The translations under genes and the position numbers were made by a program. Below, piece by piece: positions 33,663-54,972 of a stretch of DNA of 64,000 nt (positions within the stretch are counted from its first letter, which is position 1; each line of letters begins with the position of its first letter). The notes beneath the pieces are model-generated. The model ran no database searches, had not been told where the DNA came from, and was given only the letters and a program-made list of their open reading frames with translations. The DNA comes from Thermoanaerobaculia bacterium (GTDB taxonomy: Bacteria > Acidobacteriota > Thermoanaerobaculia > UBA5066 > Gp7-AA6): positions 654 to 64,653 of the forward strand of contig DATJZU010000144.1 of NCBI GenBank assembly GCA_035498835.1, written 5' to 3'.

Positions 33663-35333
33663 TCAGATCAAGCCGTGCTCGTAGGCGAAAGCCGTCGCGG
33701 CCGCCCGGGACGAGACGCCGACCTTGTCGAAAATGTTGCTCAGGTGGCGGTCCACGGTCTTCTCGCTCAGGAAGAGCTCCGCGGCGATCGCCTTGTTCGT
33801 CTTGCCGCCGGCCACGAGGCGCAGCACCTGTAGTTCCCGGGCCGTCAGGCCGTGCGGCCGCGCGTCCGCCGGGGGCTTCGGCGGCGCCTCGAGGCGCGCG
33901 AGGTCGGGCGCGGCGCCCAGGTCCCGGTACACGGCGCGCGCGGCATCCGTTTCGAGGCGCCAGCCGTCCTCGTCTCCGAGCTCCCGGCAGGCCCGGCCGA
34001 CGAGCTCGCGCACGCGCGCCGCGAGATACGGCGCCCCGAGCGAGCGCCAGATCTCGAAAGAGCGGCGCAGCGGCTCGAGCGCCGCCGCCGCGTCGCCCTC
34101 CGCCAGCCGCACGGCGCCCCGCGCGCGCGCGGCCATCGCGGAGACGACGTCCGTGTCGAGCCTCGCCGCGGCGTCTTCGAGCTCGCCGGCGGCGCGGCGG
34201 GCCTCGTCGAGATCGCACGCGGCGATCATGATCTCGACGTGCGCCGGAAGCAGGCGCGTCCGCTCGGTCCAGTCCACGGCCGCCCTCACGACCCGCCGCA
34301 TCGCCGAGGCGGCGGCCTCGATTCTCCCCTGTGCGGCGCGCAGCAGCGCGAGGCCCGGCTGAGGCTCGGAGCCCCGGCGGCTCGCGCTCGCGTAGGCCTC
34401 CTCGGCCTCGGCGAACTCGCCGCGAAGGCGATGGAGCTCCGCCCGCTGGTAGAAGGCCGGCGCCGCCGCGCGCTCGGGTGTGCTCGCGAGGAGCCTCTCC
34501 GAAGCGCGCCGCGCTTCCGCGATCGCTTCCGACCACTGTCCGTTCCACTGCAGAATCTCGGAACGATGGACGAGACACTGTCCCGTGAAGGAGACGCCGC
34601 CCGGCTGCGAGTCACAAAAAGTCTTCAGAGCCTCGGTCCACTCGCGCGCCCGCCCGAGCGCGTACACGTTTTGGCAGCATCGGATCACGATGCAGTAGAT
34701 GAGCCCCGTCACGAGCGGCGTGACCTCGCCCGCGGAGACGGCGACCATCGCCTCGTCCAGGAGCTCGAGCCCTTCCGTGACGCGGCCCTCCCCGAGAAAC
34801 GCCTGACCTTCGAGGTTCCGCGCGAAGGCGAGCAGGTCCGTGTCGGAGAAGCGCCGCGCGATCGCGGCCGCCTCGGCTGCGGCGGCGCGCGCGGCGTCCC
34901 ACTCCCGGAACGCGAGATGCTGGCGGGCGGCGGACAGCAACAGGTAGCCGCGCTCGGCGCAGTCGAGGCCGGCCTCGTCGAGCACGCGCCGGGCGCGCGC
35001 GTGCCATCCCGTGCCGCGGCCCGTCTCGCCGAGGGACAGGAGTCGAAAACCGAGCCAGAAGGCGGAACGCGCCGCCGCCGCGGCGTTGCCCAACGCGAGA
35101 TGCGCCTGATGGGCGCGCTCGAGCGCCTGCAGGAACTCCGCATCGCGGCCGAGCAGCCCTGCGGACATCGCGAGCCGGTCGAGATCACCCGCGTCGAGCG
35201 GGTCGGCGACGTCGGCTGCGGAGAGCGCCTCGAACGCGGCGGCGAAGTCGCGACACGCATACGCCTTTCGTCCGCGCACGAGCGGCGGCTCCGGAGGACG
35301 GCGCGAAGATCTGGCGGCGCGACGGGCCTTCAT
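33663..35333 (-). CDS. LuxR-family transcriptional regulator with large N-terminal TPR/MalT-like helical domain
   Basis: The C-terminal 60 aa show the LuxR HTH (LTARELQVLRLVAGGKTNKAIAAELFLSEKTVDRHLSNIFDKVGVSSRAAA). The upstream 480 aa are Ala/Leu-rich helical repeats. Confidence 0.8.
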   Translation of the reverse strand: MKARRAARSSRRPPEPPLVRGRKAYACRDFAAAFEALSAADVADPLDAGDLDRLAMSAGLLGRDAEFLQALERAHQAHLALGNAAAAARSAFWLGFRLLSLGETGRGTGWHARARRVLDEAGLDCAERGYLLLSAARQHLAFREWDAARAAAAEAAAIARRFSDTDLLAFARNLEGQAFLGEGRVTEGLELLDEAMVAVSAGEVTPLVTGLIYCIVIRCCQNVYALGRAREWTEALKTFCDSQPGGVSFTGQCLVHRSEILQWNGQWSEAIAEARRASERLLASTPERAAAPAFYQRAELHRLRGEFAEAEEAYASASRRGSEPQPGLALLRAAQGRIEAAASAMRRVVRAAVDWTERTRLLPAHVEIMIAACDLDEARRAAGELEDAAARLDTDVVSAMAARARGAVRLAEGDAAAALEPLRRSFEIWRSLGAPYLAARVRELVGRACRELGDEDGWRLETDAARAVYRDLGAAPDLARLEAPPKPPADARPHGLTARELQVLRLVAGGKTNKAIAAELFLSEKTVDRHLSNIFDKVGVSSRAAATAFAYEHGLI

Positions 35334-38824: not shown

Positions 38825-41800
38825 CTATTGCTCGAGCGGCTCGCCCAGCACGACGGCGATCCGGTGCTCGCGCCCGTCGTCGACAAGCGGGATCTCGCGC
38901 CCATCGACCGGCCCGCCGTCGAGCGAAATATGCGTGACGCCTCGCATGACTCCGCGAGGGTTCTCGACGGAGAGGCGGTATCGGGCCGAGTGGTAGCGGA
39001 AGAGGATCTCGTACCGCGGCCAGGCGCGGGGAATGCACGGATCCACGTGGAGCACCGCGCCGCGCAGGCGGAAGCCCAGGATCCACTCGACGCCCGCGCG
39101 ATACATCCAGCCGGCCGCGCCCGTGTACCAGGTCCAGCCGCCGCGCCCCGCATGCGGCCGCTCGGAATAGACGTCCCCGGCCATCACGTACGGCTCGACC
39201 TTGTAGCGATAGAGGCCGGATCGGGTGCTCGCGTGGTTGATGGGATTCAGGAGCGCGAAGAGCTCTCCGGCCTTGTCCCCATCCCCGAGCGCCGCGAACG
39301 CGATCATGGCCCACACGGCGGCGTGCGTGTACTGGCCGCCGTTCTCGCGCACCCCGGGGACGTATCCCTTGACGTAGCCCGGCTCGAGCTTCGTGCGGTC
39401 GAACGGAGGCGTGAGGAGCAGAACGAGCCCGTCGCCCCTCCGGATGAGATGCTCGTCCACGGCGGCCATGGCGCGGCGGCGCCGCTCGGGATCCGCCGCT
39501 CCGGAGATCACTCCCCACGATTGAGCGATCGAGTCGATGCGGCACTCGTCATTGGACGCCGACCCGAGAGGGGTCCCGTCGTCGAAGTAGGCGCGGCGAT
39601 ACCAGTCGCCGTCCCAGCCCTCGCGATCGAGCGTGTCCTTCAATGAGGCGGCGTGGGCGCGCCAGGTCCGGGCCCGCTCGTTTTCCCCGCGGCGCTCTGC
39701 AAGAGCGGCGAACTCGACCAGGTTGGTGTGCAGGAACCAGCCGAGCCACACGCTCTCGCCCCGGCCCTCGACGCCGACGCGATTCATCCCGTCGTTCCAG
39801 TCGCCGGTGCCCATCAACGGCAGGCCGTGGGAACCGACCGCGAGGCTGCGGTCCAGGGCGCGGGCGCAATGCTCGTAGAGCGACGCCACCTGTGGGGAGA
39901 TCTTGGGCTCGAAGTAGCGGTCGGTCTCCGCGGGCTCGAGCGGCGGGGCCTCGAGAAACGGCGCCGGTTCGTCGAGGACGCCGTAGTCGCCCGTGACCTC
40001 GACGTAGTGGTGCGCGGCGTAGGGAAGCCAGAGGAGGTCGTCCGAGATTCGGGTCCGCACGCCCTTCCCCTCGGGGTCATGCCACCAGTGCTGCACGTCT
40101 CCCTCTTGGAACTGCCGCGATGCGGCGCGCAGCAGATGCTCGCGCGCCAGCTCCCGCCGGGCGACCGTGAACGACATGGCGTCCTGAAGCTGGTCGCGGA
40201 AGCCCCAGGCGCCTCCCGCCTGATAGAACGCCGCGCGGGCCCGGTAACGGCACGCCACCACCTGGTACAGGAGCCAGCGATTCAGCATCAAGTCCATCGA
40301 GCGGTCCGGAGTGCGGACCTGGAGAGCGGAGAGGGTGTCCTCCCATTCACGACGAACCTGTGACAGCGCGGCGTCGAGGTCCTCCGTGCGGTAGCGCGTC
40401 ACGAGTCGCCTTGCCTCCGCCGTGTCGGAGCCCTGGCCGAGCAGGAAACGGATTTGCGCGCGCTGTCCGGCCTCCAGCCGCAACCGCACCTGGAGAACGG
40501 CGCAGGGATCCAGACGGGCCCCGGCGCTCCCGGACAACACGCGTTCGGGGGCGAGCCCCGCCGGAGCGTCGAGCCCCCCGTTGCGCCCCAGGAACTCCGT
40601 TCGGTCGGCCGTCCACGCCGTCTGCCGTCCTTCCGCGTCGGCGAACGCGACTCGGCCCGCGTACGGCTCATTCCAGAAGTTGCGCGCGAAAAGAGCCCCG
40701 GTCTCGTCGAGCTCGGTCACGAGGAACGGGGCCGCGGCACCGCGCTGCGCCCCGAGGACCCATTCCGTGTAGGCGGTCACCGTCAGTGTCCGCGCCTGAC
40801 CCGACCGGTTCTCGAGATCGAGGCGGGAGACCTTGACCGGATCCTCGCGCGGAACGAAGAAGAGCAGGTCCGTACCGATTCCGTGATGTTCGTGCTCGAA
40901 ACGGCTGTACCCCTGGCCGTGACGAACGAGGTACGAGCCTTCGTCCCGTATCGGCAGCGGCGTCGGGCACCAGATCTCTCCGGTCTCTTCGTCTCGAACG
41001 AAGAGGGCTTCCCCGCATGGATCGCCGACGGGGTCGTTGGACCAGGGTGTGAGCTGGTTCTGACGGCTGTTGCCCGACCACGTGTAGCCCGCTCCGGATT
41101 CCGACACGAGACAGCCGAAGGTCGAGTTGGCCAGGACATTGATCCAGGGAGCCGGAGTCCACTGCCGCTCTCCCAGGATCGTGACGTACTCGGAGCCGTC
41201 GCCGGAGAAGCCGCCCAGACCGTTGAAGAACTCCAGAGGAAGGCGGGGCGGCGGGACGTCCGCTGGCGGCGGCGGCGCGAGGATCGCCGCCGCGGCCGGC
41301 GGCGCCGGGGCGCTTCGCAGGAGACGCAGGACCTGCTCCGACAGGGTCCCATGGCGGGAGAGCAGGATGACCCGCGCGGCCACGGCGAGCGCGTCGCGCT
41401 CCTCGCCAGAGAGAAGCTCCCCGCGCAGGACGAACACGTCTCCCACCGGGCTCTCCGCCCCGGCGCCGGCCAGGCGGGCCCCCGCGCGGACCAGAGACTC
41501 CAAAGCGGAGCCGAGCTCGGGCGAGTAGGAGGTGGGCTGCTCGTTGATGATGACGAGATCCACGGCGAGGCCCTTCAGTTTCCAATACTCGTGGGCGCGC
41601 AGGAGCTGACGCACGATGCCCTGGTCCTCGACCTGATCGATCCGGACGAGCACGATCGGCCGTTCGCCCGAGATCCCATGTCTCCAGAGAACCGAAGGCC
41701 CCTTCCGGTTGCGCAGGATCGTCTCGGCGGAGGCGCGCAAAGTCGGGTCGGAGTACAGAACGCGGGTCGCGAGGCGCTGAAACAGATGCGCCTCGTCGCT

Positions 41801-44800
41801 GGTGACGCCGAGATGCCGCAACTGGACCTGGGCCTGGGTCCAGGAGAGGTTCGAGACGCGATCGAACGTGGCCGGATCCCGGTACTTGTCGGCCAGCTCG
41901 AGCGCACGCTCACGCGAATCGGCGACCATCAACGCGAGCTGAACGCGCGCCGTCGCCCCGGGGGCCAGGCGCACCCGCCGGCGAATGCTGAAGACCGGAT
42001 CCAGGACGGTTCCGACGGTATTCGAGAGCGGCCGTCGGTCCTCGATGGCGCTGGGATTTCGGATCGACCGCCCCCGGCCCAGAAATCGCCCGCGATCCGT
42101 CTCGTACTGCAGCACCTCCGACAACTCGCCCTGCGCCGTCATCACCTGCGCCGCCCAGATCGGCGCCTCGCGATCGCGAGGGCGGCGCCGGGCGAGCAAC
42201 GCCTCCGTCGCGGGGGAGAACTCGGTCTGGACGAAGAGGTTCGAGAACGCGGGATGGACGGCGTCGGCGTCGGGCGGCGCGAGCACGATCTCCGTGTACG
42301 ACGTGATCTCGATCTCTCGGGCGCGCGCCCCGAGATTGGTCAGGGAGATCCGCCGCATTTCGGCGTCGTCTTCCGTCGAGACGAGGACCTGAAGATTGGT
42401 CGCGATCGGCCCGTCGCGGCGATGAATCTCCACGCGATCTTCCGAATAGACGGCCTCGTAGGAGTCCGGTTCGACTCCCGCCGGCTGATACCCGGCCGAC
42501 CAGGTCTTTCCCGACTCCGCGTCGGTCAGGAAGACGTAGGTACCCCAGGGGTCACGCGTCGAGTCCTCGCGCCAGCGCGTGACGGCGAGCCCTCCCCAGC
42601 GGCTGTAGCCGGATCCGGCGGCCGTCATCATCACGCAGTAACGTCCGTTGGACAGCAGGTGAGTTCGCGGCGTCGGATCGTGGGGCGAACGAAAACGACG
42701 CAGGACCGGCGGGACGTCCTCCCGAACGTGAAGCTGCGCGGCCCCGTCTTCGGGCACCGGACGCGCCACCGCCACGGTGCGCGGCGTGCGCTCCTGAAGG
42801 AGAAGGTCGGTGGCCTGGACGCTCGGGTCGGCGCCGAAACGGCGGCGCATCGTCGATTCGAGCAGCAGGTTCGCGAGCGCCACGATCGTCATGCCCTGGT
42901 GGTGGGCCATGTAGGCCTTCACCACCGCGAAGGTCTCGCCCTCGGGCAGCCGCGAGGCGGTGTAATCGATCGATTCGTAGAAGCCGTATCGGCCGAGCGC
43001 GCCGATCGATGCGAGCCGCTCGAAGTTCGCGAGCGCGGCGACGGGCTCGACCATGGCGGCCAGCGCCGTCGCATACGGCGCCACGACCAGATCCTCCGAC
43101 AGGCCGCGCTTCAATCCCAGACCGCTGACGCCAAAGTTGGAGTACTGGTACGTGAAGTTCAAGTCCCACGCGTTGTAGGCGGCCTCGGAGATCCCCCACG
43201 GCACCCGTCGCTCCTCTCCGTACCGGATCTGCCGCCGCACCGCGAGCCGAACGGTCTGATCGAGCAGACTGCCCGACGGCGCCTCGAGCACGAGATCGGG
43301 CATCAGATACTCGAACATGGATCCGGACCAGGACATCAACGCGGACCCGCGGCCGACCGGAGTCAGCGGGCGACTCAGGTGGAACCAGTGATCGACCGGC
43401 GCGTCCCCGCGCGCGATCGCGACGAAGCTCGCCAGCCGCGCCTCCGACGCCAGGAGGTCATAGTGGCCCGGGTCGGCGGCGCGATCCGAGGCTCGGTACC
43501 CGATCGAAAAGAGCTCGCGGCGGCGATCCAGCAGAAACGAGAAGTCCATCTCCTCCGCAATTCGGCCGGCAGCGGCGGCGGCGGCGGCGAGACGCCGGGC
43601 GAAGGCGTCCGCCGGATCGTCCCGCCCCCGGATCGCTTCGTCGTCGCGCGCGTGGCTCGCCACGCTGTCCCGCAGAGCTTGCGCCCATTCGAGCGCGAGC
43701 GCGGTTTGCGGGCTTTCGTCTTCCTGTTGCAGCGCGAGGACGACGTCCACGAGCGTTTCGGTATGCCGGGACAGAGAGGCCAGCCGTTCCTCCCATTCGG
43801 AGAACGAGCCGGGCGCCCGCGCGAGCAACGCACGGGTCTCCTCGAGAGCGCTCTCGAGCTGGCGGGTCGTGACGACGCGGCCCGGGCTGCGCCGCGCGGC
43901 GACGATCGCGGCTTCGCGCAGGAGCTCCAGCGTGTCGCCGATCCCGTCGAGCGCGCTCTCCATGGGGATCGGCTCGTTCACGCGCTCGAGGCATGCCTGC
44001 CGAAGAGCGATCAGGTGCGCCGCGAGGTTGCCGCTGTCAACCGTCGAGACGTATCGGGGCTCGAGCGGCGCGAGATTCGCCGTGTCGTACCAGTTGTAGA
44101 AGTGTCCCCGGAAGCGATCCAGGCGTCCCAGAGTGGCGAGGGTCGCCTCGAGGCGCTGCAGCATCTCACCGGTTCCGATCCACCCCAGGTCGTTGGCCGC
44201 GACGGTCGAGAGAAGAGCGAGCCCGATGTTGGTCGGCGACGTCCGGCCGGCGATCTGCGGCTGCGGCAGTTCCTGAAAGTTGTCCGCCGGAAGACCGTGC
44301 GTCTCGGGTCCGACGAACCGCTCGAAAAAGTGCCAGGTGCGGCGTGCGATCCGGCGGAACTCGCCCGCTTGAGCGGCAGAGATCCGCGCGCTCGGCGACT
44401 CGCGCGGCGGCACACTGACCCAGCGGGCGACCAGAGGCGACAGAAGCCAGAACGCCACGAAGGGCGCGGCCCACCACCTCCCGGCGTCGGCTCCAAAGCC
44501 CGCCACCAGGAGGCCCGCGGCGGCCCCCAGCCCGACCGCCGAGCGCATGCGGCGATAGAAACCGGAGATCTCCAGATCCAGAGAGCGATGCGCCTGTGCC
44601 GCCGGCACCCACTCCAGCCGATGCCGCCGCGACACGGCCATACGCCAGAGAGTGCGCGCGATCGCATCGGATCGGAGCCAGGCCGTGTGCGCCAGAAAAA
44701 CCAGACGCGCAGCCGCTTGCGCCAGCCCGATGGCGAGGTCCGAGACGACGCCCCGCACGAAGCTGCGCTTGGCGACGCCCGGGTGTTCGGGGAGAAGACC

Positions 44801-47356
44801 CGTGAAGAACGACAGCAGCGTGGGGAAAACGAACACGAAGAGGATGAAGAGCGTCCCGAGGCGAGCGCCGGCTCCCGGCAGGCACCACGCGGTGAGCAGC
44901 GTCGCAAAGGTCGCCGGCGGCGCGAGGCTCCGCCGGAGGTTGTCGAGCATCTTCCAGCGACCCATGAGAGGAATCGCGCTTCGCGTACGGCTGGCGCGGG
45001 GGCCGTTCCCGACGATCCAGGGCAACAACTGCCAGTCACCTCGCACCCAGCGGTGCTGGCGCGAGGCGGCCACCTCGTAATGGCCCGGGAAGCCTTCGAA
45101 GAGCTCGATGTCCGAAACAAATCCGGCTCGGGCGAACAGCCCTTCGAAGAGATCGTGGGAGAGTTGCGTATTGTCCGGCACCCGGTCGCCGAGCGCGCGC
45201 TCGAACGCGTCCACGTCGTAGATGCCCTTGCCGGTGTAGATCGCCTCGCCGAAGAGGTCCTGGTACACATCCGAGACAGCGAAGGCGTAGGGATCGATGC
45301 CGCGAGGGCCCGAGAAGATGAGCTGGAAGAGCGTGCCGAAGCCGGTTTCGGGCAACGTGGGAGCGACGCGCGGCTGGAGAATCGCATGCCCCTCGACGAC
45401 TCGTTCCGCCGCCGCGTCGAAGATGGGCACGTTCAGCGGGTGGGCGATCGTTCCAATCAGCCCGCGTGCGGCCTCCCGCGGCAGCCGCGTGTCCGCGTCC
45501 AGCGTGATGACGTACCGGATGCCGGCGGGCGGCGGCGCGCCGCCTTCCACCGACAGAAAGGACGTGTCCGTCGCGCCGCGCAGGAGACGGTTGAGCTCGC
45601 GAAGCTTCCCGCGCTTCCTTTCCCATCCCATCCAGACCCCTTCGCCCTCGTTCCAGAGGCGGCGCCGATGGAAGACCCAGAAGCGGTCGCCTCCCCCGGC
45701 CGCAGGCCCGTGCCGGTCGTTGAGCTCCCTTACCGCGGCGCGCGCCGCCGCGACGAGTGCGTCGTCCTCGGGCAGGCTCTCCGAAGGCGCGTCGGACCAG
45801 TCCGACAGGAGCGCGAACCGGAGCTCGGGATCCGGATTGGCGAGGTAGTGCACCTCCAACCGCTGCACCACCTCGCGAATCTCGGTGTCATCGGTCAGGA
45901 GCATGGGAATCACGATCAGTGCGCGCGCCTGTTCCGGCACGCCGGCGGCGAGCTCGAGCTTGGGCAGTCGCCGCGGCCCGATGAGCGCCGTCACGAACCG
46001 CTGCACGAGACCGGTCGCCAGGTCCGAGGCCGGTACCAACGCGAGGACGGCGAGCAGGCCCAGAGAGGCGCGGGAAGCGCCGGCCACATCGGCGAGCGCC
46101 AGAGGAACGGCGAGGATCGCGGCGGTTCCGAGGGCGATCGTGCCCAGGTAGCCGGGAGTCGCGGCAGCGAACCACGCGCGCCGCAGCCATTGCCGGACCG
46201 GGACGTGGAACTCGAGCTCGACCTCGAGCCGCGCGCGCCCCCGGGAGATCAGGTAGTAGCCGGGGTCGGCAAGACGCGGATCGGGAGCGGCCTCCGAATC
46301 CCCCGGCGAGGTCTCGGCGCTCCGAGCCATGGCGACGGCACGGCGCGCCACCTCGAGCTCGTCATGGACGCTCCCGCGTGACAGATCCTCGACCGCGTGC
46401 CGATAGCGATCGCGTGTCGCGAAGTCCATCTCGGCGACGCGCGTGCCCGCGGAGAGCGCTTCGTGAACGAGGCTCACGCTCTCGAAGAACTCCGCCCAGT
46501 CGGCCGAAGAAAGGAGCCGCATGCTCGTGATGACGTTGCGTACCGTCGCGTGGCTGGCGACCTGTGCCTGGTGCTCGAGATGGACGGCCTCTTCGGCCGT
46601 GGTCCCATCGCGGGCGAATCGGCGATCGAGCCAGGCGAGCGCCGGAGTGACCGCGGGATCCTGTTCGCGGAGTCTCCGGGCGAGCTGGACCGCGAAGGCC
46701 GAGGTGAACGGCAGTTGCTCCAGCATCTGAATCACGGCCGCCGGACCCGGGCTCGGGATGCCGCCGGTCGAGAGCTGCGTGTCGGCGATCGCGTCGGCCT
46801 GTTCCCGCGCGATGCCCCGCGCGGCGACGCGCTCGGCCAGGCGACGAAGATTCTCGACCAGAACCACGCGCAGCGAGATCGCCAACGCCCACAGCTCGCC
46901 GATCGTGAGAGGCTGCACGGCCTGGTAGGCGCGGACGAAGCGGCGCAGCGTGTCGAGATCGATTCGACTGTCCGTGTGCGAGACGAACGACCAGGCCAGC
47001 CCGTAGACGCGCGGGTAGCCTTCGAGCGGTCCGGAAGCGAGCTTGGGCAGCTCCCGGTAGAACCCGGGTGGCAGGTCCTGCTGGATCTCCCGGATCTGCT
47101 CCTCGACGATGTGGGAGTTGTTGAGCAGCCACTCCGCCGCCGGAGAGATGGCACGGGTCCTTCGGCTGGCCTCCGCGATCGCCCGCTGAGCCTGCAGAAG
47201 CACCCGCGAGTTCTCGCGCAGCCGCGGCAGCAACGGACGGCCGCGCCTTTGTCGGAGGTGGACGGGCTGTTCGGCGGCGAGCTTCGCGGCGAACTGCTCC
47301 AGATGATCCGCCGAAAAGAGCTCGGCGCGAATGGGGTCGCCGTCCGCGCGCATCAT
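38825..47356 (-). CDS. Cyclic beta-1,2-glucan synthase (NdvB/ChvB/Cgs-like; GT84 glycosyltransferase + GH94 phosphorylase-like domains)
   Basis: 2843-aa single ORF with uniformly high GC3. The N-terminal membrane/GT domain carries the D,D,D...QxxRW-like motifs ([26 protein letters not shown]). C-terminal GH94/GT36 domains are present (…[12 protein letters not shown]…, …[10 protein letters not shown]…). The size and architecture are those of NdvB. The 1975-aa plus-strand ORF antisense to it is an artefact. Confidence 0.85.
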
Positions 47357-47562: not shown

Positions 47563-48107
47563 TCACCCACCGGAGACCGCCTGAACTGCCGCGAGCAGGG
47601 TCGCCAGCCCGAAGGAGCTCTCGTGCCGGACGTTGTTGATGAAGAAGGCCGGCGCCACGGCGACACCGCTTCGGACGCCTCCCCGTCGGATGCCCCGGAT
47701 CTTCTCGGAGTGGACGTGGGCGAGCATCTCGCGGCGGAACCGAATCAGGTCCAGGCCGACCTGCGCCGCATGCCGTTGGAGCCGGACCCGGTCCCTCGGA
47801 GTCTCGCCTTCGAACAGGGATCGTGCATCTCCCAGAACCTGCCCTGCGAGGACGCGCACTCCGCGGCCTGGGCTGCCTCCTCGGAATGCCGGAATTGCTC
47901 GGGCTGCGGAAAGCTGCGGTAGACGTAGCGCAGACGCGTGCCCATCTTCTTCTGGATCTTCTTGACGGTGCCGTACGCCTGCGCGCACGCCGGCGAAGCG
48001 AAGTCGCCGTAAGCAACCAGCGTCGTGCTTGCGAGGGGCGAGCCGCGAACGTGGTCCTTCGCCGAAACTTTCCGCGCGAGTCTTTGTCCCGGTCGCTTCG
48101 CGTTCAC
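47563..48107 (-). pseudogene. DsbA-like thioredoxin-fold protein with SPAC (SxxC) motif, disrupted by a single-base frameshift in a C-run
   Basis: Frame A (GTG 48107, SD GGAAGGTGA) gives ...GSPLASTTLVAYGDFASPACAQAY...ECASSQGRFWEMHD. A different frame continues the same family C-terminus ...LFEGETPRDRVRLQRHAAQVGLDLIRFRREML...GVAVAPAFFINN... The switch occurs at plus-strand GGG 47817..47819. Total length is 545 nt (3n-1). Confidence 0.5.
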
Positions 48108-48342
48108 CGTTTCACCTTCCGGCCCGGCATGCGATCTCGAAATGATGTTCCGACATTCCGAGCGATCGATCGTGCACCGCCGGGCCCTCATCATGGCCGT
48201 CGGGTCGGCGCCGGGTCCAATCGTTTGTTTCGATCGAGTTCAGACTCGCGAGCGCTGGAGTCAGAACGCGTGTCGAGCCGTTCGCGGTGCATGCGACCAC
48301 TCCGGGCCGCCCCGTCGCCCGCGGTGGCTCGGACGCAAGCGC

Positions 48343-50280: not shown

Positions 50281-50596
50281 CGAATCCTCCTGGCCCGGCA
50301 CCGGCCCCGCACGAAAGCAGCGTGCGCGCCCGAACGGCGATCTGCGAATCTCACGAAACCCGTTTCTCGGGCGGCCGTGCCGCCTTGTTCTCGTGGTCTC
50401 TGCGCATCGTCCCAGAGCCTAGCACCCGGTTCACACAGAGCGGACGGGGCATCGGCCGCGTGAGCATCGTGAATGACCGGCGCAGTCTCAGGCGCGATGC
50501 CGGCGCTTCGGCTCTGAGCCGCGGCGATCGGGAGTCGATCGTCCCGGCCGAAAGAAGCGAATGCGCGGGAGTATTCTGACGACAAATGGAGGTCGC

Positions 50597-50959
50597 ATGA
50601 CGACTCGACGCGCGTTGATCCTCGCCGTCCTGGCTTCGCTCTCGACCGCGCTCGCCCCGGCAGCCGCCGAGAAGACCGGCGTGCTCGAGGTGACCTACTA
50701 CTACCTGCCCGGCTGACCGATCTGCGCAAAGATCAAGCCCGCCGTGAGCGGGCTCGGGGAGGAGTACAAGGGGAAAGCCCGGGGCGAGAACCTCGACGCC
50801 ACGACGCCCGAGAACCGGAAGGTCGTGAAGTCGCTCGGCTTCGACAATCACGGTCTCGTCATCCGATCGGCGGATGGCAAGGTCCTCTGGAAGGAGCCCG
50901 ACCACGAGGTGAAGATGGAGGACGTGCGCCGGGAGCTCGACAAGCTGCTCGGTAAGTAG
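50597..50959 (+). CDS. Exported thioredoxin-fold protein with in-frame TGA (candidate selenocysteine) in a UxxC redox motif
   Basis: SD GGAGG 5 nt before ATG 50597. Signal peptide MTTRRALILAVLASLSTALAPAAA. The translation then reads EKTGVLEVTYYYLPG-[TGA 50714..50716]-PICAKIKPAVSGLGEEYKGKARGENLDATTPENRKVVKSLGFDNHGLVIRSADGKVLWKEPDHEVKMEDVRRELDKLLGK. High GC3 is maintained on both sides of the TGA in the same frame. The TGA sits exactly where thioredoxins have the first Cys of CGPC (…U-P-I-C-A-K-I-x-P). Confidence 0.55.
50736..50754 (+). promoter_or_regulatory. Stem-loop AGCCCGC-CGUGA-GCGGGCU 20 nt downstream of the in-frame UGA; candidate bacterial SECIS element
   Basis: 7-bp GC stem with a 5-nt apical loop containing GU, spanning +20 to +38 from the UGA. 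This matches the expected position of a bacterial SECIS. Seen directly; function inferred. Confidence 0.4.
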
Positions 50960-50994
50960 CGCCGGGGCGCGGCCGCGGCGGGCTCGCGGCGAAC

Positions 50995-52656
50995 TCAGGT
51001 CAGAGCCAGATACTCGTGCGCGAGGCGCACGACCATGGAGCCTTCTCCGACGGCGGAGGCCACGCGGTTCATCGCTCCCGCGCGCACGTCGCCCGCAGCG
51101 AACACCCCCGCCACGCTCGTCTCGAGGGGAAACGGCTCCCGCTGTTCTTTCCAGGTTTTCGGATAGGCCTCGGCCGCCATCAGATCGCGGCCCGTGAGAA
51201 CGAAGCCTTTCGCGTCGCGCAGGACGCCGGCCGGCAGCCAGTCGCTTCGCGGCCGCGTCCCGATGAAAACGAAAACGGCGTCGGCTTCTTCGGTTCGACA
51301 CGAGCCGTCGTCGAGCGAACGCAGAGTCACCCGTTCCACGTGACCGGCGCCTTCGACGCCGGCGATCTCCGTCCGGGCGCGCAGATGGATGTTCCAGGTC
51401 TTCTCGATCTGCTCGATCAGGTACTGCGACATCGTCTCCTGCAGGCCTTCGCGGCGCACGACGATCTGCACATCCTCCGCATACCGCGCCAGGTGCATGG
51501 CTCCCTGGCCGGCGGAGTTGCCGCCGCCCACGACGAAGACTCGCCGGCCGCGGAACGCCGGCGCTTCTGTGGTCGCGGCGCCGTAATAGACGCCGGCGCC
51601 CGCGTGCTCCGCGACTCCGGGAGCCGGATGCTCCCGGTAGAACATGCCCGTGGCGGCCAGCATGGCTCGCGTGACGAGCTCGCGGCCGTCCGACAGCGCG
51701 AGACGCTTGTATCCGCCGCCGATCGAGACGCCCGTCACCTCGAGCGGCGCGAGGAACTCGGCGCCGAGGCGCTGCGCCTGCATGATGGCGCGGCGCGTCA
51801 GCTCGCTGCCGCTGACACCGGCGGGGAACCCGAGGTAGTTTTCGATGCGGGAGCTCGTCCCCGCCTGTCCGCCCGGGGAGTGGCGGTCGAGCAGGATCGT
51901 CCGCAGGCCTTCGGAGGCGCCGTACACCGCCGCCGCGAGCCCGGCGGGACCCGCCCCGACGACCACGAGGTCATAGACCTCGAAGGCGGCCGACAGCGGC
52001 CGGCCGAGACGTTCGGCCACCTGGCGCGGCTCCGGGTTCGTCAGGACGCTCCCGTCCTCGAAGAAGAGGGCCGGGAGCGCGTCGGTGCCGATGCCCGCGG
52101 CCTCGAGAAGCGTCCGCGCGTCCGCCTCGCGCTCGACGTCCAGCCAGCGGTACGGAACGAGGTTGCTCGCGAGAAAGTCCTTGATCTCGTGGGATCGCGT
52201 GGCCCACTGATGCCCGATCAGCCGCAGGCCGCACGCTTCCGGCAGCGACTCCGCCTGCCAGGCGTCGAGCAGGTCGTCGACGACCGGATAGAGCCGTTCC
52301 TCGGGCGGATCCCAGGGCTTCGAGAGGTAATGATCGAGGTGCGCTTCGTTGATCGCGCGGATCGCCGCTTCGATGTCCGAATATGCCGTCAGCAGGACAC
52401 GCCGCGCGAGAGGGTACAGCTCGCGGGAGCGGGCGAGCACTTCCCCGCCGAGCATCCCGGGCATGCGCTGGTCGCTGATCACCATCGCCAGCGAATCGCC
52501 GCGGCTCTTCAGATCGCGCGCCGTCTCGAGCGCCTCCGATCCCGAGCCGGCGCTCACGACCATGTACTGGTCCCTGTACCGGGAGCGGAGGTCTCGCCGC
52601 ACCGCCGCGAGGACCTGCGGATCGTCATCCACGACGAGGAGAACGGGTTTGCTCAC
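50995..52656 (-). CDS. Response-regulator receiver domain fused to a thioredoxin-disulfide reductase-like FAD/NAD(P) oxidoreductase
   Basis: GTG 52656 overlaps the upstream kinase stop (GTGA). REC domain: VLLVVDDDPQV...ISDQRMPGM...YLSKP. The C-terminal 320 aa are TrxB-like (DLVVVGAGPAGLAAAVY, FVVGGGNSAGQ, GVFAAGDV). The redox-active CxxC of TrxB is not obvious at the usual place. Confidence 0.75.
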   Translation of the reverse strand: MSKPVLLVVDDDPQVLAAVRRDLRSRYRDQYMVVSAGSGSEALETARDLKSRGDSLAMVISDQRMPGMLGGEVLARSRELYPLARRVLLTAYSDIEAAIRAINEAHLDHYLSKPWDPPEERLYPVVDDLLDAWQAESLPEACGLRLIGHQWATRSHEIKDFLASNLVPYRWLDVEREADARTLLEAAGIGTDALPALFFEDGSVLTNPEPRQVAERLGRPLSAAFEVYDLVVVGAGPAGLAAAVYGASEGLRTILLDRHSPGGQAGTSSRIENYLGFPAGVSGSELTRRAIMQAQRLGAEFLAPLEVTGVSIGGGYKRLALSDGRELVTRAMLAATGMFYREHPAPGVAEHAGAGVYYGAATTEAPAFRGRRVFVVGGGNSAGQGAMHLARYAEDVQIVVRREGLQETMSQYLIEQIEKTWNIHLRARTEIAGVEGAGHVERVTLRSLDDGSCRTEEADAVFVFIGTRPRSDWLPAGVLRDAKGFVLTGRDLMAAEAYPKTWKEQREPFPLETSVAGVFAAGDVRAGAMNRVASAVGEGSMVVRLAHEYLALT

Positions 52657-54068
52657 GCCCGGCCTTCGGCGCCCTCGATCTCGGCAAGCGGCAGCGTGAC
52701 CTGAAACTCCGTCCGGCCCGGCCGCGACTCGACCGCGATCTCCCCCTCGTTGTGCTGGACGAGCCGGCGGACGATGTCGAGGCCCAGGCCCGTCCCCTGC
52801 CCGGCGGCCTTCGTCGTGAAAAAGGGATCGAAGATCCGGTCGCGGATCTCGGCCGGGATGCCGGGGCCGTTGTCGGCGATCCGCACGACGACGCGCCGGG
52901 ACTCCCGACCGGCCTCGACCTCGACGCGACCCGATTCGGGGACGGCGTCGAGCGCGTTGTCGATCAGGTTGCCCCAGATCTGGTTCAGCTCGCCCACGAA
53001 CCCGCGGACGCGAGGCAAGCCAGGGTCGACTTTCACGGACACGGCGACCGACTTCCCGCGCGCCTTCGACTTGAGAACCGCGACCGTGTTCGCGAGGCTC
53101 TTGGCGAGATCCACCGGCTCGGCGACGGTTGCCTGGTCCATGTGCGTGAAACCCTTGACCGCCAGGACCAGCCCCGCGATCCGGGTCGCGGCCTCCTGGA
53201 TCTCCGAGGCGAGCCGGCGGAGAGAACAGCCCGCGGCGGCCCAGCGCAACGCGGCATTGAGCGCGGGCCCCTGGACGGCGCCGGAGAGCCGATCGAGCGC
53301 TTCGGTCGTCACGGCGGTTTCGGCCAGGGCTTCGGCGGCGGCCGTATCGAGGCCGCGGCCGGCGAGCCAGCCGGTGATGGCCTCTTCGCGTTCGGCGTGC
53401 TCGATCGGCGACCGGACCCCCTGCTCGGGCGCGGCGGCGCACGCGTTGCGCACGCCGTCGATGGCGTCGAACTGCGAGACGGTGAGACCCGCCGTGGCGA
53501 GAGCGCGCGCCGCCTGCTCGGCGTCCTCGAGCCGGTTCGCGAAAAGCGCCGCGCTTCGTTCGATCGCGGACGCGGGGTTGTTCAGCTCGTGGGCGAGCCC
53601 CGCCGAGAGACGCCCGAGCGAGATCATCTTCTCGTCGTGCAGCTCGTTCGACGTGAATTCCCGCGCTCGATCGATCATCCGATGGACGAGGATCGACGTG
53701 AGCTCGTGGCACTCTCTGGCGAGGGCGTTCATGTGCTCGCGGGGCACGACGAGGACCTCCGAGGGCTCCTGGACGAGCGACCGGCCCGGCGCCGCGACGA
53801 GGCGGGAGTACGGAAGCAAGCCCGTCACGTCGCCATCCCGCCACTCCGCCAGCTTGTGAGGGCCCGAGCCGCGATCGATGAAGATGGCGATCCGGCCCGA
53901 GAGAACGACGAACAGACCTTCCACCGGCGCGCCCCGCGTCGAGAGCGTGTCGCCCACCTCCAGGCGCCGGAGGGTCCCGTGCGCCGCCAGCCACTCGAGC
54001 TCCTGGCGAGGCGCGGCTCCGATCGTCTTGTGGTTCGCGAGCCGATCGACGAGCTCGGTCGACGTCAT
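52653..54068 (-). CDS. Histidine kinase with N-terminal cyclic-nucleotide-binding (cNMP/CAP-effector) domain
   Basis: cNMP-binding beta-roll (LEVGDTLSTRGAPVEGLFVVLSGRIAIF...GDVTGLL), then H-box LSAGLAHELNNPASAI, N box WGNLIDNALDA and G boxes (DNGPGIP, GTGLGLDIV). Cytoplasmic, with no TM segment. Confidence 0.8.
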   Translation of the reverse strand: MTSTELVDRLANHKTIGAAPRQELEWLAAHGTLRRLEVGDTLSTRGAPVEGLFVVLSGRIAIFIDRGSGPHKLAEWRDGDVTGLLPYSRLVAAPGRSLVQEPSEVLVVPREHMNALARECHELTSILVHRMIDRAREFTSNELHDEKMISLGRLSAGLAHELNNPASAIERSAALFANRLEDAEQAARALATAGLTVSQFDAIDGVRNACAAAPEQGVRSPIEHAEREEAITGWLAGRGLDTAAAEALAETAVTTEALDRLSGAVQGPALNAALRWAAAGCSLRRLASEIQEAATRIAGLVLAVKGFTHMDQATVAEPVDLAKSLANTVAVLKSKARGKSVAVSVKVDPGLPRVRGFVGELNQIWGNLIDNALDAVPESGRVEVEAGRESRRVVVRIADNGPGIPAEIRDRIFDPFFTTKAAGQGTGLGLDIVRRLVQHNEGEIAVESRPGRTEFQVTLPLAEIEGAEGRA

Positions 54069-54386
54069 GGGACTGACACCAGGGGCCGAATCCTACATCC
54101 GGCGTTCCAAGGAAGAAGCGCCGCACGGTACGGCTCGCGGCCGGGCCGTGTCGGGTGCGCCCGAACGGCCGCTCGCCTGGTCTCGTATCTGACGAACCCG
54201 GATGCGACTCACGCTCTCCCTTGCGCCCTCGAGGTCAAATCATCGGCCAGTCGAGTCTCGATGGCGCGCCTGCTTTCTGGTCGAGGCCGGCGATAAAGCG
54301 CCCGTCCGTTCGACGACAGCCTCGAACCCCGGTTGCGGGGCGAGGGATTGGCGGCGGCGCGGACGGCGGCCGTGCCCGCTCGGGTA

Positions 54387-54438
54387 TTGACAAGAGGCGA
54401 ATGTTGCATAAATATGCCTCCCTGTGAATGATAATTCT
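54387..54438 (+). promoter_or_regulatory. argR/arg-operon promoter: -35 TTGACA (54387..54392), -10-like TAAATA (~54409..54414), and tandem ARG boxes tTGCATAAATATGCc and TGAATGATAATTCt
   Basis: Read from the sequence. The TGAAT-N4-ATTC box (54425..54437) matches the ArgR/AhrC operator consensus. A second related box overlaps the -10, 21 bp upstream. The argR ATG follows at 54448. Confidence 0.45.
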
Positions 54439-54447
54439 GGAAGCGCA

Positions 54448-54972
54448 ATGCGGCGCCGCGAGGCCATTCGGCGTCTCGTCGTGGAGCGGACGGTGCGCTC
54501 TCAGAAGGAGCTCGCCCGGCTGCTGAGGGCCCGCGGCGTGGCGGCGGCGCAGCCGACGCTGTCCCGCGACATCCGGGAGCTCGGCCTCGTCAAGGGGCCC
54601 GCAGGCTACTCGGCTCCGGAGGCCGGCTTGCCGACGACGCTCCTGGCCGCCTCGGCCTCCATCGCGCATCGCCGACTTCAGACCTTCGAGCGCCTCGTCA
54701 ACGACTTCGTGCTCTCCGTCGAAGCGGCGGGCACGCTCGTCGTGCTCCGGACGCCCCCCGCCGACGCCCAGCCCGTAGCCCTGGCGATCGACGCGGCCGC
54801 CCTCGACGGCGTCATCGGAACCATCGCCGGCGACGACACGATCTTCCTCGCCGCCCGCTCCGCGGAACAGGCCGAGGACCTCGCCCTCCGGTTTCGCAAG
54901 GCGATCGGAGCGCGGCCGGCCGAGGGGCCCACGCGCTTCCCCCGCCGCCGCAAGCCGGGCCGGCGCGCCTAG
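54448..54972 (+). CDS. argR: Arginine repressor
   Basis: MRRREAIRRLVVERTVRSQKELARLLRARGVAAAQPTLSRDIRELGLVK (winged-helix) plus a C-terminal oligomerisation/arginine-binding domain (GTIAGDDTIFL). Confidence 0.8.
   Translation: MRRREAIRRLVVERTVRSQKELARLLRARGVAAAQPTLSRDIRELGLVKGPAGYSAPEAGLPTTLLAASASIAHRRLQTFERLVNDFVLSVEAAGTLVVLRTPPADAQPVALAIDAAALDGVIGTIAGDDTIFLAARSAEQAEDLALRFRKAIGARPAEGPTRFPRRRKPGRRA

What the first reader, a model, noticed from the sequence alone, without database searches (positions are those of the whole stretch)
50995..54068. cNMP-binding histidine kinase + REC-thioredoxin-reductase fusion convergent on the Sec-thioredoxin gene
A cytoplasmic histidine kinase whose only sensory module is a cyclic-nucleotide-binding domain is GTGA-coupled to a response regulator whose output domain is a TrxB-like flavoprotein rather than a DNA-binding domain. 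This pair terminates 35 nt from the 3' end of the candidate selenoprotein thioredoxin. Together they look like a second-messenger-controlled disulfide-reduction module, an output logic not commonly described for two-component systems.
Basis: inference. Interest (0 to 1): 0.6.

Follow-up and report, generated by a model that had tools for sequence, protein, structure and literature searches.

The report
Kinase-controlled flavoenzyme lacking thioredoxin-reductase cysteines
The two genes are a real, widely conserved signalling pair, but the flavoprotein output has lost every redox cysteine that defines a thioredoxin reductase, and the neighbouring selenoprotein gene is an exported bystander, so the pair is not a disulfide-reduction module and its chemistry is unknown.

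Summary
A soluble 471-aa histidine kinase (52653-54068, minus strand) has a Pfam cNMP_binding domain. Its stop overlaps by GTGA the start of a 553-aa response regulator (50995-52656, minus strand), which ends 35 nt from a TGA-interrupted thioredoxin-like gene.

The regulator is REC, then a mycoredoxin-like domain, then a TrxR-like FAD/NAD(P)H module. Both CxxC motifs are gone: WCxxC is WATRS, and CAxC is GAATT. This loss is family-wide, in 80 genome loci from several phyla and in about 100 distant representatives. The FAD and NADPH motifs and a replacement signature, YYGAAxTEA, stay nearly invariant. It is therefore not a thioredoxin-disulfide reductase, and it does not look like a decayed domain either.

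The kinase-regulator pair is conserved: a homologous kinase is adjacent in 74 of 80 loci, with a 4-nt overlap in 15. A sister family fuses a cNMP_binding domain directly to the same flavoprotein module. The kinase's ligand pocket is not a canonical cyclic-nucleotide site.

The selenoprotein gene is a neighbour only in a close subclade. It carries a signal peptide, so a partnership is unlikely.

New leads are a small zf-UBP gene (22 of 80 loci by ORF clustering) and ergothioneine genes egtB/egtD (10 of 80) linked to the pair elsewhere.

The parts
52653..54068 (-). Soluble sensor histidine kinase, 471 aa
   Evidence: ORF. Pfam cNMP_binding plus HATPase_c. The H, N, G1, F and G2 boxes are invariant in 62 orthologues. 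No TM segment. AF2 model pLDDT 78.9.
53715..53969 (-). CAP/cNMP-type effector (sensor) domain, residues 34-118, with the family motif G-x-LP[YF]SR in place of a canonical phosphate-binding cassette
   Evidence: Pfam PF00027, 36.5 bits. Alignment to CRP and PycTIR. Family alignment.
53589..53591 (-). Codon of the phospho-acceptor His160 (LSAGLAHELNNP)
   Evidence: H-box invariant in 62 orthologues and in 55 close homologues.
53277..53480 (-). All-helical insertion (residues about 197-264) between the two helices of the dimerisation/phosphotransfer hairpin
   Evidence: AF2 secondary structure. Poorly conserved stretch in the family alignment.
52683..52988 (-). ATP-binding catalytic domain (HATPase_c, residues 361-462)
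   Evidence: Pfam, 95 bits. Foldseek matches to ZraS, CckA and HK853.
52653..52656 (-). GTGA overlap of the kinase stop and the regulator start (translational coupling)
   Evidence: Sequence. The same 4-nt overlap occurs in 15 loci and in L081/L085/L087/L088.
50995..52656 (-). Response regulator with flavoenzyme output, 553 aa
   Evidence: ORF. Domains. AF2 model pLDDT 92.4, pTM 0.86.
52264..52644 (-). Receiver (REC) domain, residues 5-131. D10, D11, D62, T90 and K113 are all present.
   Evidence: Pfam, 56.6 bits. These residues are invariant in 41 sequences from several phyla and conserved in 80 loci.
52006..52224 (-). Mycoredoxin/glutaredoxin-like thioredoxin-fold domain (residues 145-217). 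Its CxxC is replaced by ATRS (SPxS in most relatives). The cis-Pro (P195) is kept.
   Evidence: TIGR02200, 33 bits. Alignment over the full length of M. tuberculosis mycoredoxin 2LQO: WCGYC versus WATRS. Family motifs.
51007..51975 (-). TrxR-fold FAD/NAD(P)H module (residues 228-550). GAGPAG, GGGNSAGQ, VRR and AAGDVR are kept.
   Evidence: phmmer against TrxR 4GCM, E = 4e-46. Foldseek against TrxR in the FR conformation (5MH4), TM 0.95, rmsd 1.7 A. Motif conservation.
51562..51588 (-). YYGAATTEA (residues 357-365), the family signature at the position of the TrxR redox-active CA[TV]C-D
   Evidence: Residue-by-residue alignments to three TrxRs. Y357, Y358, G359 and E364 are invariant. The signature is present in all 80 loci and in the distant representatives.
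50597..50959 (+). Neighbour, not part of the module: an exported thioredoxin-like candidate selenoprotein. It has a signal peptide, TGA at 50714-50716 in a UxxC motif, and a hairpin at 50736-50754.
   Evidence: Translation. Hairpin with GU in the loop, starting 19 nt after the UGA. The TGA and hairpin nucleotides are invariant in 5 loci while the signal-peptide region diverges. More than 100 homologue clusters are called as 71-aa post-TGA fragments. Hydrophobic N-terminus.

Best explanation
This is a self-contained two-gene signalling module in which a two-component system controls an enzyme rather than transcription.

Proposed steps:
1. The soluble kinase binds an unidentified small ligand in its CAP-type effector domain. 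A cyclic nucleotide is possible, but the site is not canonical.
2. The kinase autophosphorylates on His160.
3. It transfers the phosphate to Asp62 of the regulator's receiver domain.
4. The receiver then switches the activity of the attached flavoenzyme. That enzyme consists of a cysteine-free mycoredoxin-like domain plus a TrxR-fold module that still binds FAD and NAD(P)H but has no redox-active disulfide.

Because the dithiol relay is missing, the enzyme cannot reduce thioredoxin by the TrxR mechanism. It most likely passes electrons from NAD(P)H through the flavin directly to a non-protein-disulfide acceptor. Candidates are a low-molecular-weight sulfur compound such as oxidised ergothioneine, a quinone or metal, or a small partner protein such as the zf-UBP protein.

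What is shown: the domain anatomy, loss of the cysteines, retention of the cofactor and phosphorylation motifs, conservation of the pair, and the cNMP-fused sister family. What is inferred: phosphotransfer, regulation of catalysis, and the identities of ligand and acceptor.

The convergent Sec-thioredoxin-like gene is a lineage-specific neighbour encoding an exported protein. It is not a partner.
For: Anatomy and motifs.

Family-wide loss of CxxC with conserved cofactor motifs. All 80 loci have G[VI]YYGAAxTEA and W[SA]xxSH, and keep GAGPAG, GGGNSAGQ, R[RK] and AAGDVR. About 100 representatives at 50% identity or less have GV[YF]YG[AS]xx[TS]EA. Y357, Y358, G359 and E364 are invariant across phyla.

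Functional receiver and kinase residues: D10, D11, D62, T90 and K113 are invariant, and the H/N/G1/F/G2 boxes are invariant.

Conservation of the pair. At least 595 species-level genomes carry the regulator. A homologous kinase is adjacent in 74 of 80 loci by tblastn and 67 of 80 by full-length clustering. The gap is a 4-nt overlap in 15 loci and 30 nt or less in 17 more.

Rosetta-stone link. Eight of eight tested sister proteins carry cNMP_binding fused directly to the same Grx-like plus TrxR-like module. They are 40-49% identical to window residues about 140-551.

Structure. The model is confident (pLDDT 92.4, pTM 0.86) and superposes on TrxR in the flavin-reducing conformation.

No link to the Sec-Trx gene.

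Leads on the acceptor. egtB/egtD lie in four different arrangements next to the pair in 10 of 80 loci from at least 4 phyla. A zf-UBP gene follows the pair in 22 of 80 loci by ORF clustering, 23 by tblastn.
Against: There are no biochemical data for any family member, and no paper on it was found in the library.

Retention of cofactor motifs does not prove catalysis. The flavoprotein could be a redox or NAD(P)H sensor.

Many distant family members lack the phospho-acceptor Asp, so phosphorylation is not universally required.

The egtBD and zf-UBP genes are absent from this window, so those leads may not apply to this organism.

The Trx-U gene does stay next to the regulator in several close relatives (L085-L088). 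A lineage-specific link is therefore unlikely but not strictly excluded.

The model coordinates could not be inspected, so what faces the flavin is inferred from alignments only.
Confidence: 0.6

Rival explanations
1. One reading: a cyclic-nucleotide-controlled thioredoxin reductase that reduces the adjacent selenocysteine thioredoxin.
For: Best sequence and fold matches are to true TrxRs. The FAD and NADPH motifs are intact. The Trx-U gene is convergent 35 nt away here and in L088, and near the regulator in L085-L087. The TGA and hairpin look like a genuine Sec site.
Against: There is no CxxC in either the TrxR-like or the Grx-like domain, here or anywhere in the family. The only cysteine conserved in the close subfamily is the single C453. 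TIGR01292 scores below its cut-off. The Trx-U protein has a signal peptide while the kinase and regulator are soluble. The gene is absent from 80 of 80 species loci and from relatives at 92-93% identity.
Confidence: 0.03
2. The flavoprotein module is a non-catalytic sensor or scaffold. It binds FAD and/or NAD(P)H to report redox state. With the receiver it acts by protein-protein interaction, for example on the zf-UBP protein, or as a phosphate sink.
For: Both catalytic disulfides are lost. Many distant relatives have degenerate receivers lacking the Asp, as expected for domains used as scaffolds. No metabolic operon partner is conserved across the whole family.
Against: Sequence conservation is very high: 49-57% identity over the full 550 aa between phyla and 84-95% within the class. 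It includes the NADPH 2'-phosphate Arg pair, the GD motif and a strictly conserved replacement motif at the former active site, with a [TS]-E dyad where TrxR has Cys138-Asp139. This pattern is more typical of a changed catalysis than of a ligand sensor.
Confidence: 0.2
3. A specific version of the main model: the enzyme works in ergothioneine metabolism. It would be an NAD(P)H-dependent reductase of oxidised ergothioneine, or of the sulfenic intermediate of its biosynthesis. The cysteine-free mycoredoxin-like domain would bind the thione, and the kinase would sense a related metabolite.
For: EgtB (DinB_2 plus FGE-sulfatase, 146 bits) and EgtD (Methyltransf_33, 287 bits) flank the pair in 10 of 80 loci. 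The arrangements are egtB-egtD-HK-RR, HK-RR-zfUBP-egtB-egtD, RR followed by egtB only (L066), and convergent. They occur in Vicinamibacterales, Ignavibacteriales, several Bacteroidota genera and a Burkholderiales MAG. From my own knowledge: YpdA/Bdr shows that a TrxR-fold flavoprotein without CxxC can reduce a low-molecular-weight disulfide, and the CRP-family protein PrfA shows that CAP-type domains can bind a thiol (glutathione).
Against: Seventy of 80 loci have no egt genes within 6 kb, and there are none in this 64-kb window. Contexts of the cNMP-fused sisters show none either. The chance expectation was estimated only roughly, and genome-wide co-occurrence was not tested.
Confidence: 0.12

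Closest known systems
Low-molecular-weight thioredoxin reductase (TrxB; e.g. S. aureus 4GCM, L. lactis 5MH4, E. coli 1TDE)
   Same: Same two-domain FAD/NADPH fold (TM 0.95 to 5MH4), 26-32% identity in the Foldseek matches. GxGxxG, GGGNSA, the RR pair and the GD motifs are present.
   Different: No redox-active CA[TV]C; GAATT is in its place. There is an insertion of about 19 residues with conserved W502, R506 and E512. REC and Grx-like domains are fused N-terminally. It scores below the TIGR01292 cut-off.
AhpF and NTRC (thioredoxin-fold domain fused to a TrxR module)
   Same: A thioredoxin-fold domain and a TrxR-fold module in one chain. AhpF is the top Foldseek hit by E-value and TIGR03140 and TIGR03143 are hit.
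   Different: In AhpF and NTRC both modules carry CxxC and relay electrons between them; here neither does. The domain arrangement does not superpose (rmsd above 18 A).
TrxR-fold flavoproteins without CxxC: YpdA/Bdr bacillithiol-disulfide reductase and TrxR-like ferredoxin-NADP+ reductases (YumC, C. tepidum FNR 3AB1)
   Same: They show how such a fold works without the dithiol: electrons go from the flavin directly to a small disulfide or an iron-sulfur protein (own knowledge). Weak sequence matches: TIGR04018 at 60 bits and 3AB1 at 73 bits.
   Different: Much more distant in sequence than true TrxRs. They have no REC or Grx-like domain. They lack the YYGAAxTEA signature as far as the alignments here show.
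'REC-thioredoxin reductase' class of response regulators in Galperin's censuses
   Same: Same catalogued domain combination. It is called 'Mycobacterium-like' and was also found in Heimdallarchaeota (PMC5847659).
   Different: The census lists the architecture only. It does not mention the missing cysteines, the middle domain, the cognate cNMP-type kinase or the neighbours.
Response regulators with enzymatic outputs (CheB, RpfG HD-GYP, PleD/WspR GGDEF, PP2C phosphatases)
   Same: The same logic: phosphorylation of REC gates an attached enzyme. The REC domain is closest to the HD-GYP/NosR type (113 bits; 2RJN).
   Different: Here the output is a redox flavoenzyme, not a signalling-nucleotide, methylesterase or phosphatase domain.
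cNMP_binding-TrxR-like fusion proteins (automatic names 'thioredoxin reductase (NADPH)' or 'FAD-dependent oxidoreductase')
   Same: Same Grx-like plus TrxR-like module without CxxC, 40-49% identical. The sensor domain type matches that of the kinase here.
   Different: The sensor is fused directly, with no kinase or receiver step. Their binding-cassette motif (G[DE]...L[ST]G) differs from the kinase's LP[YF]SR.

Membership tests
Thioredoxin-disulfide reductase (TIGR01292 / EC 1.8.1.9) | Redox-active CxxC (CA[TV]C) in the NADPH domain | tested here: not met
   Aligned to 4GCM, 7AAW and 4ZN0, C-A-V-C corresponds to G-A-(A)-T-T. Absent in 80 of 80 loci and in all distant representatives.
Thioredoxin-disulfide reductase (TIGR01292 / EC 1.8.1.9) | FAD (GxGxxG, GD) and NADPH (GxGxxA, HRR) binding motifs | tested here: met
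   GAGPAG, AAGDVR, GGGNSAGQ and VRR are conserved. The third Arg of HRRxxxR is Gln.
Thioredoxin-disulfide reductase (TIGR01292 / EC 1.8.1.9) | Score at or above the curated family cut-off | tested here: not met
   213.9 bits against a cut-off of 343.45.
Thioredoxin-disulfide reductase (TIGR01292 / EC 1.8.1.9) | NADPH-dependent reduction of thioredoxin | not testable with these tools
   Needs an enzyme assay.
Two-component system (histidine kinase plus response regulator) | Kinase H-box His and N, G1, F and G2 boxes | tested here: met
   LSAGLAHELNNP, NQxWxNLIDNA, DNGxGIP, IFDPFFTTK and GxGTGLGLD are invariant in 62 orthologues.
Two-component system (histidine kinase plus response regulator) | Receiver with acidic pair, phospho-Asp, Thr and Lys | tested here: met
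   D10, D11, D62, T90 and K113 are invariant in 41 sequences and conserved in 80 loci.
Two-component system (histidine kinase plus response regulator) | Cognate genes adjacent and co-transcribed | tested here: met
   GTGA overlap here. A kinase homologue is adjacent in 74 of 80 loci. 15 loci have the 4-nt overlap.
Two-component system (histidine kinase plus response regulator) | Phosphotransfer from kinase to regulator | not testable with these tools
   Needs an in-vitro phosphotransfer assay.
Cyclic-nucleotide-binding domain (PF00027) as a cNMP receptor | Profile match above the Pfam gathering score | tested here: met
   36.5 bits against 27.5. The beta-barrel plus C-helix is predicted.
Cyclic-nucleotide-binding domain (PF00027) as a cNMP receptor | Phosphate-binding cassette G-E-x(n)-R-[ST]-A | tested here: not met
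   The CRP Glu72 position is Leu, the loop is shorter, and there is no conserved R-[ST]-A. The conserved motif is G-x-LP[YF]SR. The alignment in this region is uncertain.
Cyclic-nucleotide-binding domain (PF00027) as a cNMP receptor | Binding of cAMP or cGMP | not testable with these tools
   Needs a binding assay.
Glutaredoxin / mycoredoxin | Thioredoxin fold with cis-Pro | tested here: met
   Full-length alignment to mycoredoxin 2LQO (27.6 bits). P195 is invariant. A beta-alpha-beta-alpha-beta-beta-alpha pattern is predicted at residues 145-216.
Glutaredoxin / mycoredoxin | Active-site CxxC or CxxS | tested here: not met
   WCGYC aligns with WATRS. Relatives have WSPxS. TIGR02200 scores 33 bits against a cut-off of 89.5.
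AhpF | N-terminal double thioredoxin fold with CxxC, plus a TrxR module with CxxC | tested here: not met
   One Trx-fold domain only and no CxxC. TIGR03140 scores 135 bits against a cut-off of 503.
YpdA/Bdr bacillithiol-disulfide reductase | Family profile match | tested here: not met
   TIGR04018 scores 60 bits against a cut-off of 340. It resembles this family only in being a CxxC-less TrxR fold.
Bacterial selenoprotein (neighbouring gene only) | Conserved in-frame UGA at a redox motif, with a downstream hairpin | tested here: met
   UGA lies in UxxC. The hairpin is at 50736-50754 with GU in the loop. Both are invariant in 5 loci. Homologues are called as post-TGA fragments.
Bacterial selenoprotein (neighbouring gene only) | Cys-containing homologues; selA/selB/selD and tRNA-Sec in the genome | tested here: inconclusive
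   The only full-length homologue listed has Ser at the position (P0273). No tRNA-Sec was found in the 64-kb window. The rest of the genome was not available.

The most novel reading that the evidence does not exclude
The pair is the core of an undescribed redox-signalling system. A CAP-type kinase senses a thiol- or thione-related metabolite, not a cyclic nucleotide. By phosphorylation it switches on a cysteine-free TrxR-derived flavoenzyme that recycles oxidised ergothioneine or a related low-molecular-weight sulfur compound, with the small zf-UBP zinc protein as an accessory or target. This would be the first dedicated bacterial ergothioneine reductase and the first flavin redox enzyme shown to be gated by a receiver domain.
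Probability: 0.1. Interest if true: 0.8.

Novelty: new variant of a known kind. Interest (0 to 1): 0.45.

Why it matters
Databases name these proteins 'thioredoxin reductase (NADPH)', 'FAD-dependent oxidoreductase' or simply 'response regulator'. Response-regulator censuses list the architecture as REC plus thioredoxin reductase.

This analysis shows that the whole family, present in at least 595 species-level genomes of Acidobacteriota, Bacteroidota, Ignavibacteriota, Chloroflexota, cyanobacteria and others, has no redox cysteines, so the TrxR name is misleading. The family nevertheless looks like an active NAD(P)H flavoenzyme whose activity is set by a dedicated kinase, or by a directly fused sensor of the same type in the sister family.

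That makes it a widespread uncharacterised case of post-translational two-component control of redox chemistry. It comes with concrete, testable leads on the substrate (ergothioneine genes, the zf-UBP partner). For this window in particular, the proposed thioredoxin-reductase/selenoprotein pairing can be set aside.

Tried and rejected
- **Rfam and tRNA scans.** Rfam at gathering thresholds found nothing in the window, and ARAGORN found only tRNA-Arg.
- **Trio conservation.** tblastn of the Trx-U protein and its N- and C-terminal halves against 80 loci gave no hits. Flanking genes of the window (argR, argC, the desaturase, the 136-aa ORF) are not syntenic with any locus, so only the pair travels together.
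- **Literature.** Searches for REC-TrxB, fused response regulator/thioredoxin reductase, cNMP-binding plus thioredoxin reductase, and zf-UBP plus ergothioneine found nothing specific. One search had a syntax error. Galperin's 2006 and 2010 reviews are not held.
- **Structure jobs.** The afdb50 fold library is not installed. Model coordinates are not exposed, so flavin-facing residues and inter-domain contacts could not be read.
- **Kinase model.** Foldseek with the kinase model returned only kinase cores and nothing on the sensor's ligand.
- **Contexts of cNMP-fused sisters** (L090-L096) were uninformative, apart from a CMD/AhpD-like gene directly upstream in one.
- **Promoter and terminator scan** of 50300-54500 found nothing above shuffles and no terminator in the 35-nt convergent gap.
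- **Rejected idea: the flavoprotein is a YumC-type ferredoxin reductase or a YpdA.** The sequence is far closer to true TrxR and AhpF.
- **Rejected idea: the domain is simply degenerate.** The cofactor motifs and the replacement motif are too strongly conserved.

Full report
**1. Observation**

The window is about 70% G+C. Close homologues are named as Thermoanaerobaculia (Acidobacteriota) MAG proteins, and the kinase is identical to HTO77481.1 on a 75-kb contig.

On the minus strand, a 471-aa ORF (52653-54068) is followed by a 553-aa ORF (50995-52656). The second ORF's GTG start overlaps the first ORF's TGA stop as GTGA. Homologues share the N-terminus MxKP..L.VDDDPQV, which confirms that start.

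Pfam and NCBIfam give, for the first protein, cNMP_binding (34-118), a weak HisKA match around the H-box, and HATPase_c. For the second they give Response_reg, a weak mycoredoxin-type match (148-217), and a thioredoxin-reductase-like Pyr_redox_2 module (228-550).

The regulator's stop lies 35 nt from the TAG of a plus-strand ORF that reads through a TGA in the context YYYLPG-U-PIC. The coordinates and the description are correct.

**2. The 'TrxB-like' output is not a thioredoxin reductase**

Residue-by-residue alignments to three solved TrxRs place GAATT where they have the redox-active CAVC. TIGR01292 scores 214 bits against a cut-off of 343.

The domain between REC and the flavoprotein aligns over its whole length with M. 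tuberculosis mycoredoxin. WCGYC in mycoredoxin corresponds to WATRS here.

This is a family property, not a local defect:
- In 80 loci from species-representative genomes, with 49-90% identity over the full length, every protein has G[VI]YYGAAxTEA and W[SA]xxSH.
- The same holds in about 100 representatives of 50%-identity clusters.
- No cysteine column is conserved family-wide. In the close subfamily only the single C453 is conserved.

In contrast, several features are conserved or invariant across phyla:
- the FAD motifs (GAGPAG, AAGDVR);
- the NADPH motif (GGGNSAGQ);
- two of the three 2'-phosphate arginines;
- the GGQAGTSSRIENYLGFP stretch;
- a [TS]-E dyad at the positions of TrxR Cys138-Asp139.

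An AlphaFold2 model built on 82 sequences is confident (pLDDT 92.4, pTM 0.86). Its flavoprotein part superposes on L. lactis TrxR in the flavin-reducing conformation (TM 0.95, rmsd 1.7 A).

The module therefore looks like a working NAD(P)H/FAD enzyme whose dithiol relay has been replaced by something else. It is neither a TrxR nor a decayed remnant.

**3. The two-component part is sound and the pair is the conserved unit**

The receiver residues D10, D11, D62, T90 and K113 are invariant. The kinase H, N, G1, F and G2 boxes are invariant in 62 orthologues. Neither protein has a membrane-like segment.

A homologue of this kinase lies next to it in 74 of 80 loci by tblastn, and in 67 of 80 by full-length clustering. 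It is usually upstream, with a 4-nt overlap in 15 loci and a gap of 30 nt or less in 17 more. In a few lineages the kinase has another N-terminal module (L072, L073, L079).

No other gene of the window is syntenic with any locus.

**4. Link between the sensor type and the flavoenzyme**

A search of 1.8 billion cluster representatives found proteins of the same length that match only residues about 140-551. All eight that were scanned carry a Pfam cNMP_binding domain in place of REC. They also lack CxxC.

So the same sensor type is coupled to the same flavoenzyme in two ways: directly, or through a kinase and receiver. This is a Rosetta-stone argument that the sensor-flavoenzyme pairing is functional. 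Some partner kinases (L051, L070, L080) have binding-cassette sequences like the fused type.

**5. Is the ligand a cyclic nucleotide?**

This is unresolved and doubtful. The Pfam score is above threshold, but PDB matches are weak (E about 0.1). In the alignments the CRP Glu72 position is Leu, the cassette is shorter, and no R-[ST]-A is conserved. The only strongly conserved sensor motif is G-x-LP[YF]SR.

The kinase model shows the beta-barrel and C-helix feeding a long helix that bears His160. It also shows an all-helical insertion (197-264) at the hairpin tip. Foldseek returned only kinase cores.

**6. The Sec-thioredoxin-like gene**

It is probably a real selenoprotein gene:
- The UGA sits in a UxxC motif.
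- A 7-bp hairpin with GU in its loop starts 19 nt downstream of the UGA.
- The UGA and hairpin nucleotides are invariant in five loci, although the signal-peptide region has diverged.
- More than 100 homologue clusters are called as 71-aa post-TGA fragments.

It is not a partner of the pair:
- It has a signal peptide (MTTRRALILAVLASLSTALAPAAA).
- It is absent from all 80 species loci, including those at 86-90% regulator identity.
- It is absent next to regulators at 92-93% identity.
- It is adjacent only in some close relatives, with a 200-aa gene inserted in two of them.

This is local synteny within a subclade.

**7. Leads on function**

Clustering of all ORFs in the 80 loci shows two accessory associations:
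- A zf-UBP protein of about 90 aa (PF02148) is encoded directly after the pair in 22 loci by ORF clustering (23 by tblastn) from at least six phyla-level groups.
- EgtB (DinB_2 plus FGE-sulfatase) and EgtD (histidine methyltransferase), the ergothioneine genes, flank the pair in 10 loci. The arrangements are egtB-egtD-HK-RR, HK-RR-zfUBP-egtB-egtD, RR followed by egtB only (L066), and convergent.

My rough estimate is that chance would give well under one such locus among 80. Neither gene is in this window, and the contexts of fused sisters show neither.

From my own knowledge, YpdA/Bdr and YumC-type reductases show that TrxR folds without CxxC can pass electrons directly from the flavin to a small disulfide or a ferredoxin. 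A role in recycling a low-molecular-weight sulfur compound is therefore mechanistically reasonable, but it is unproven.

**8. Comparison with what is known, and verdict**

The REC plus thioredoxin reductase architecture is listed in Galperin's census ('Mycobacterium-like', also found in Heimdallarchaeota). No function is given there (PMC5847659). I found no paper on the family, its kinase, or its neighbours in the library.

It works like other enzyme-output response regulators. It is not a member of the TrxR, AhpF, glutaredoxin or YpdA families, because it fails their defining tests.

Verdict:
- It is a new variant of a known kind.
- Interest is moderate. It comes mainly from the family-wide loss of the cysteines, the sensor swap, and the ergothioneine and zf-UBP leads.

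Noticed in passing
L010, L011, L018, L020, L021, L022, L033, L036, L039, L040, L042, L043, L049, L051, L053-L056, L065, L068-L070, L075 (typically about 7656-7975 in locus coordinates): A zf-UBP (PF02148) protein of about 90 aa is encoded right after the kinase-regulator pair on the same strand, in 22 of 80 loci by ORF clustering (23 by tblastn) from several phyla. It is absent from this window. It could be a third component or a target of the system.
   Followed up: partly
L010, L011, L032, L035, L036, L040, L055, L056, L066, L069: The ergothioneine biosynthesis genes egtB and egtD lie next to the pair in four different gene arrangements: upstream on the same strand, downstream on the same strand after zf-UBP, downstream with egtB only (L066), and convergent. 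This suggests a functional link to ergothioneine.
   Followed up: partly
window 50597-50959 (+); TGA at 50714-50716; hairpin at 50736-50754: A candidate exported selenoprotein with a UxxC motif. The TGA and a SECIS-like hairpin are nucleotide-invariant in relatives, while the signal-peptide region diverges. Its N-terminus, TRRALIL, resembles a twin-arginine signal. The one full-length homologue listed (P0273) has Ser at the Sec position. Pfam does not recognise it as a thioredoxin.
   Followed up: partly
window 53277-53480 (-), kinase residues about 197-264: A poorly conserved all-helical insertion sits at the tip of the kinase's dimerisation hairpin, between the His160 helix and the second helix. 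This is unusual for HisKA-type kinases.
   Followed up: no
P0162, P0210, P0217, P0221, P0228, P0231, P0250, P0260; loci L090-L096: A sister family has cNMP_binding fused directly to the same cysteine-free Grx-like plus TrxR-like module. It includes members in an archaeal gene context (L095). In L090 a CMD/AhpD-like gene ends 11 nt upstream. P0143 has an N-terminal SnoaL-like domain in front of the same architecture; its REC region was not detected by Pfam.
   Followed up: partly
Representatives P0131, P0135, P0140, P0147-P0149 and others: Many distant REC-type members lack the phospho-acceptor Asp (for example LVLAAQ, LVIASP). They are pseudo-receivers, so part of the family must be regulated without phosphorylation.
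   Followed up: no
Among the 120 best hits, the regulator is more conserved (84-95% identity) than its kinase (71-90%). This is consistent with stronger constraint on the flavoenzyme than on the sensor.
   Followed up: no
window 38825-47356 (-): A 2843-aa protein with GH94 supersandwich and catalytic domains and a glucoamylase-like domain. From my own knowledge, its size and domains are those of a cyclic beta-1,2-glucan synthase.
   Followed up: no
window 47745-48194 (-): A DsbA-like Thioredoxin_4 ORF that matches only the first half of the profile. It has SPAC where CxxC is expected, and its C-terminus looks out of frame. It may be a frameshifted or decayed gene.
   Followed up: no
window 14320-17274 (+), 30252-32324 (+), 25871-27184 (-), 33663-35333 (-): The window is rich in other signalling genes: a CHASE3-PAS hybrid kinase, a MASE1 hybrid kinase, a sigma-54-dependent response regulator, and a TPR-LuxR regulator next to an FMO-like flavoprotein (32321-33541).
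   Followed up: no
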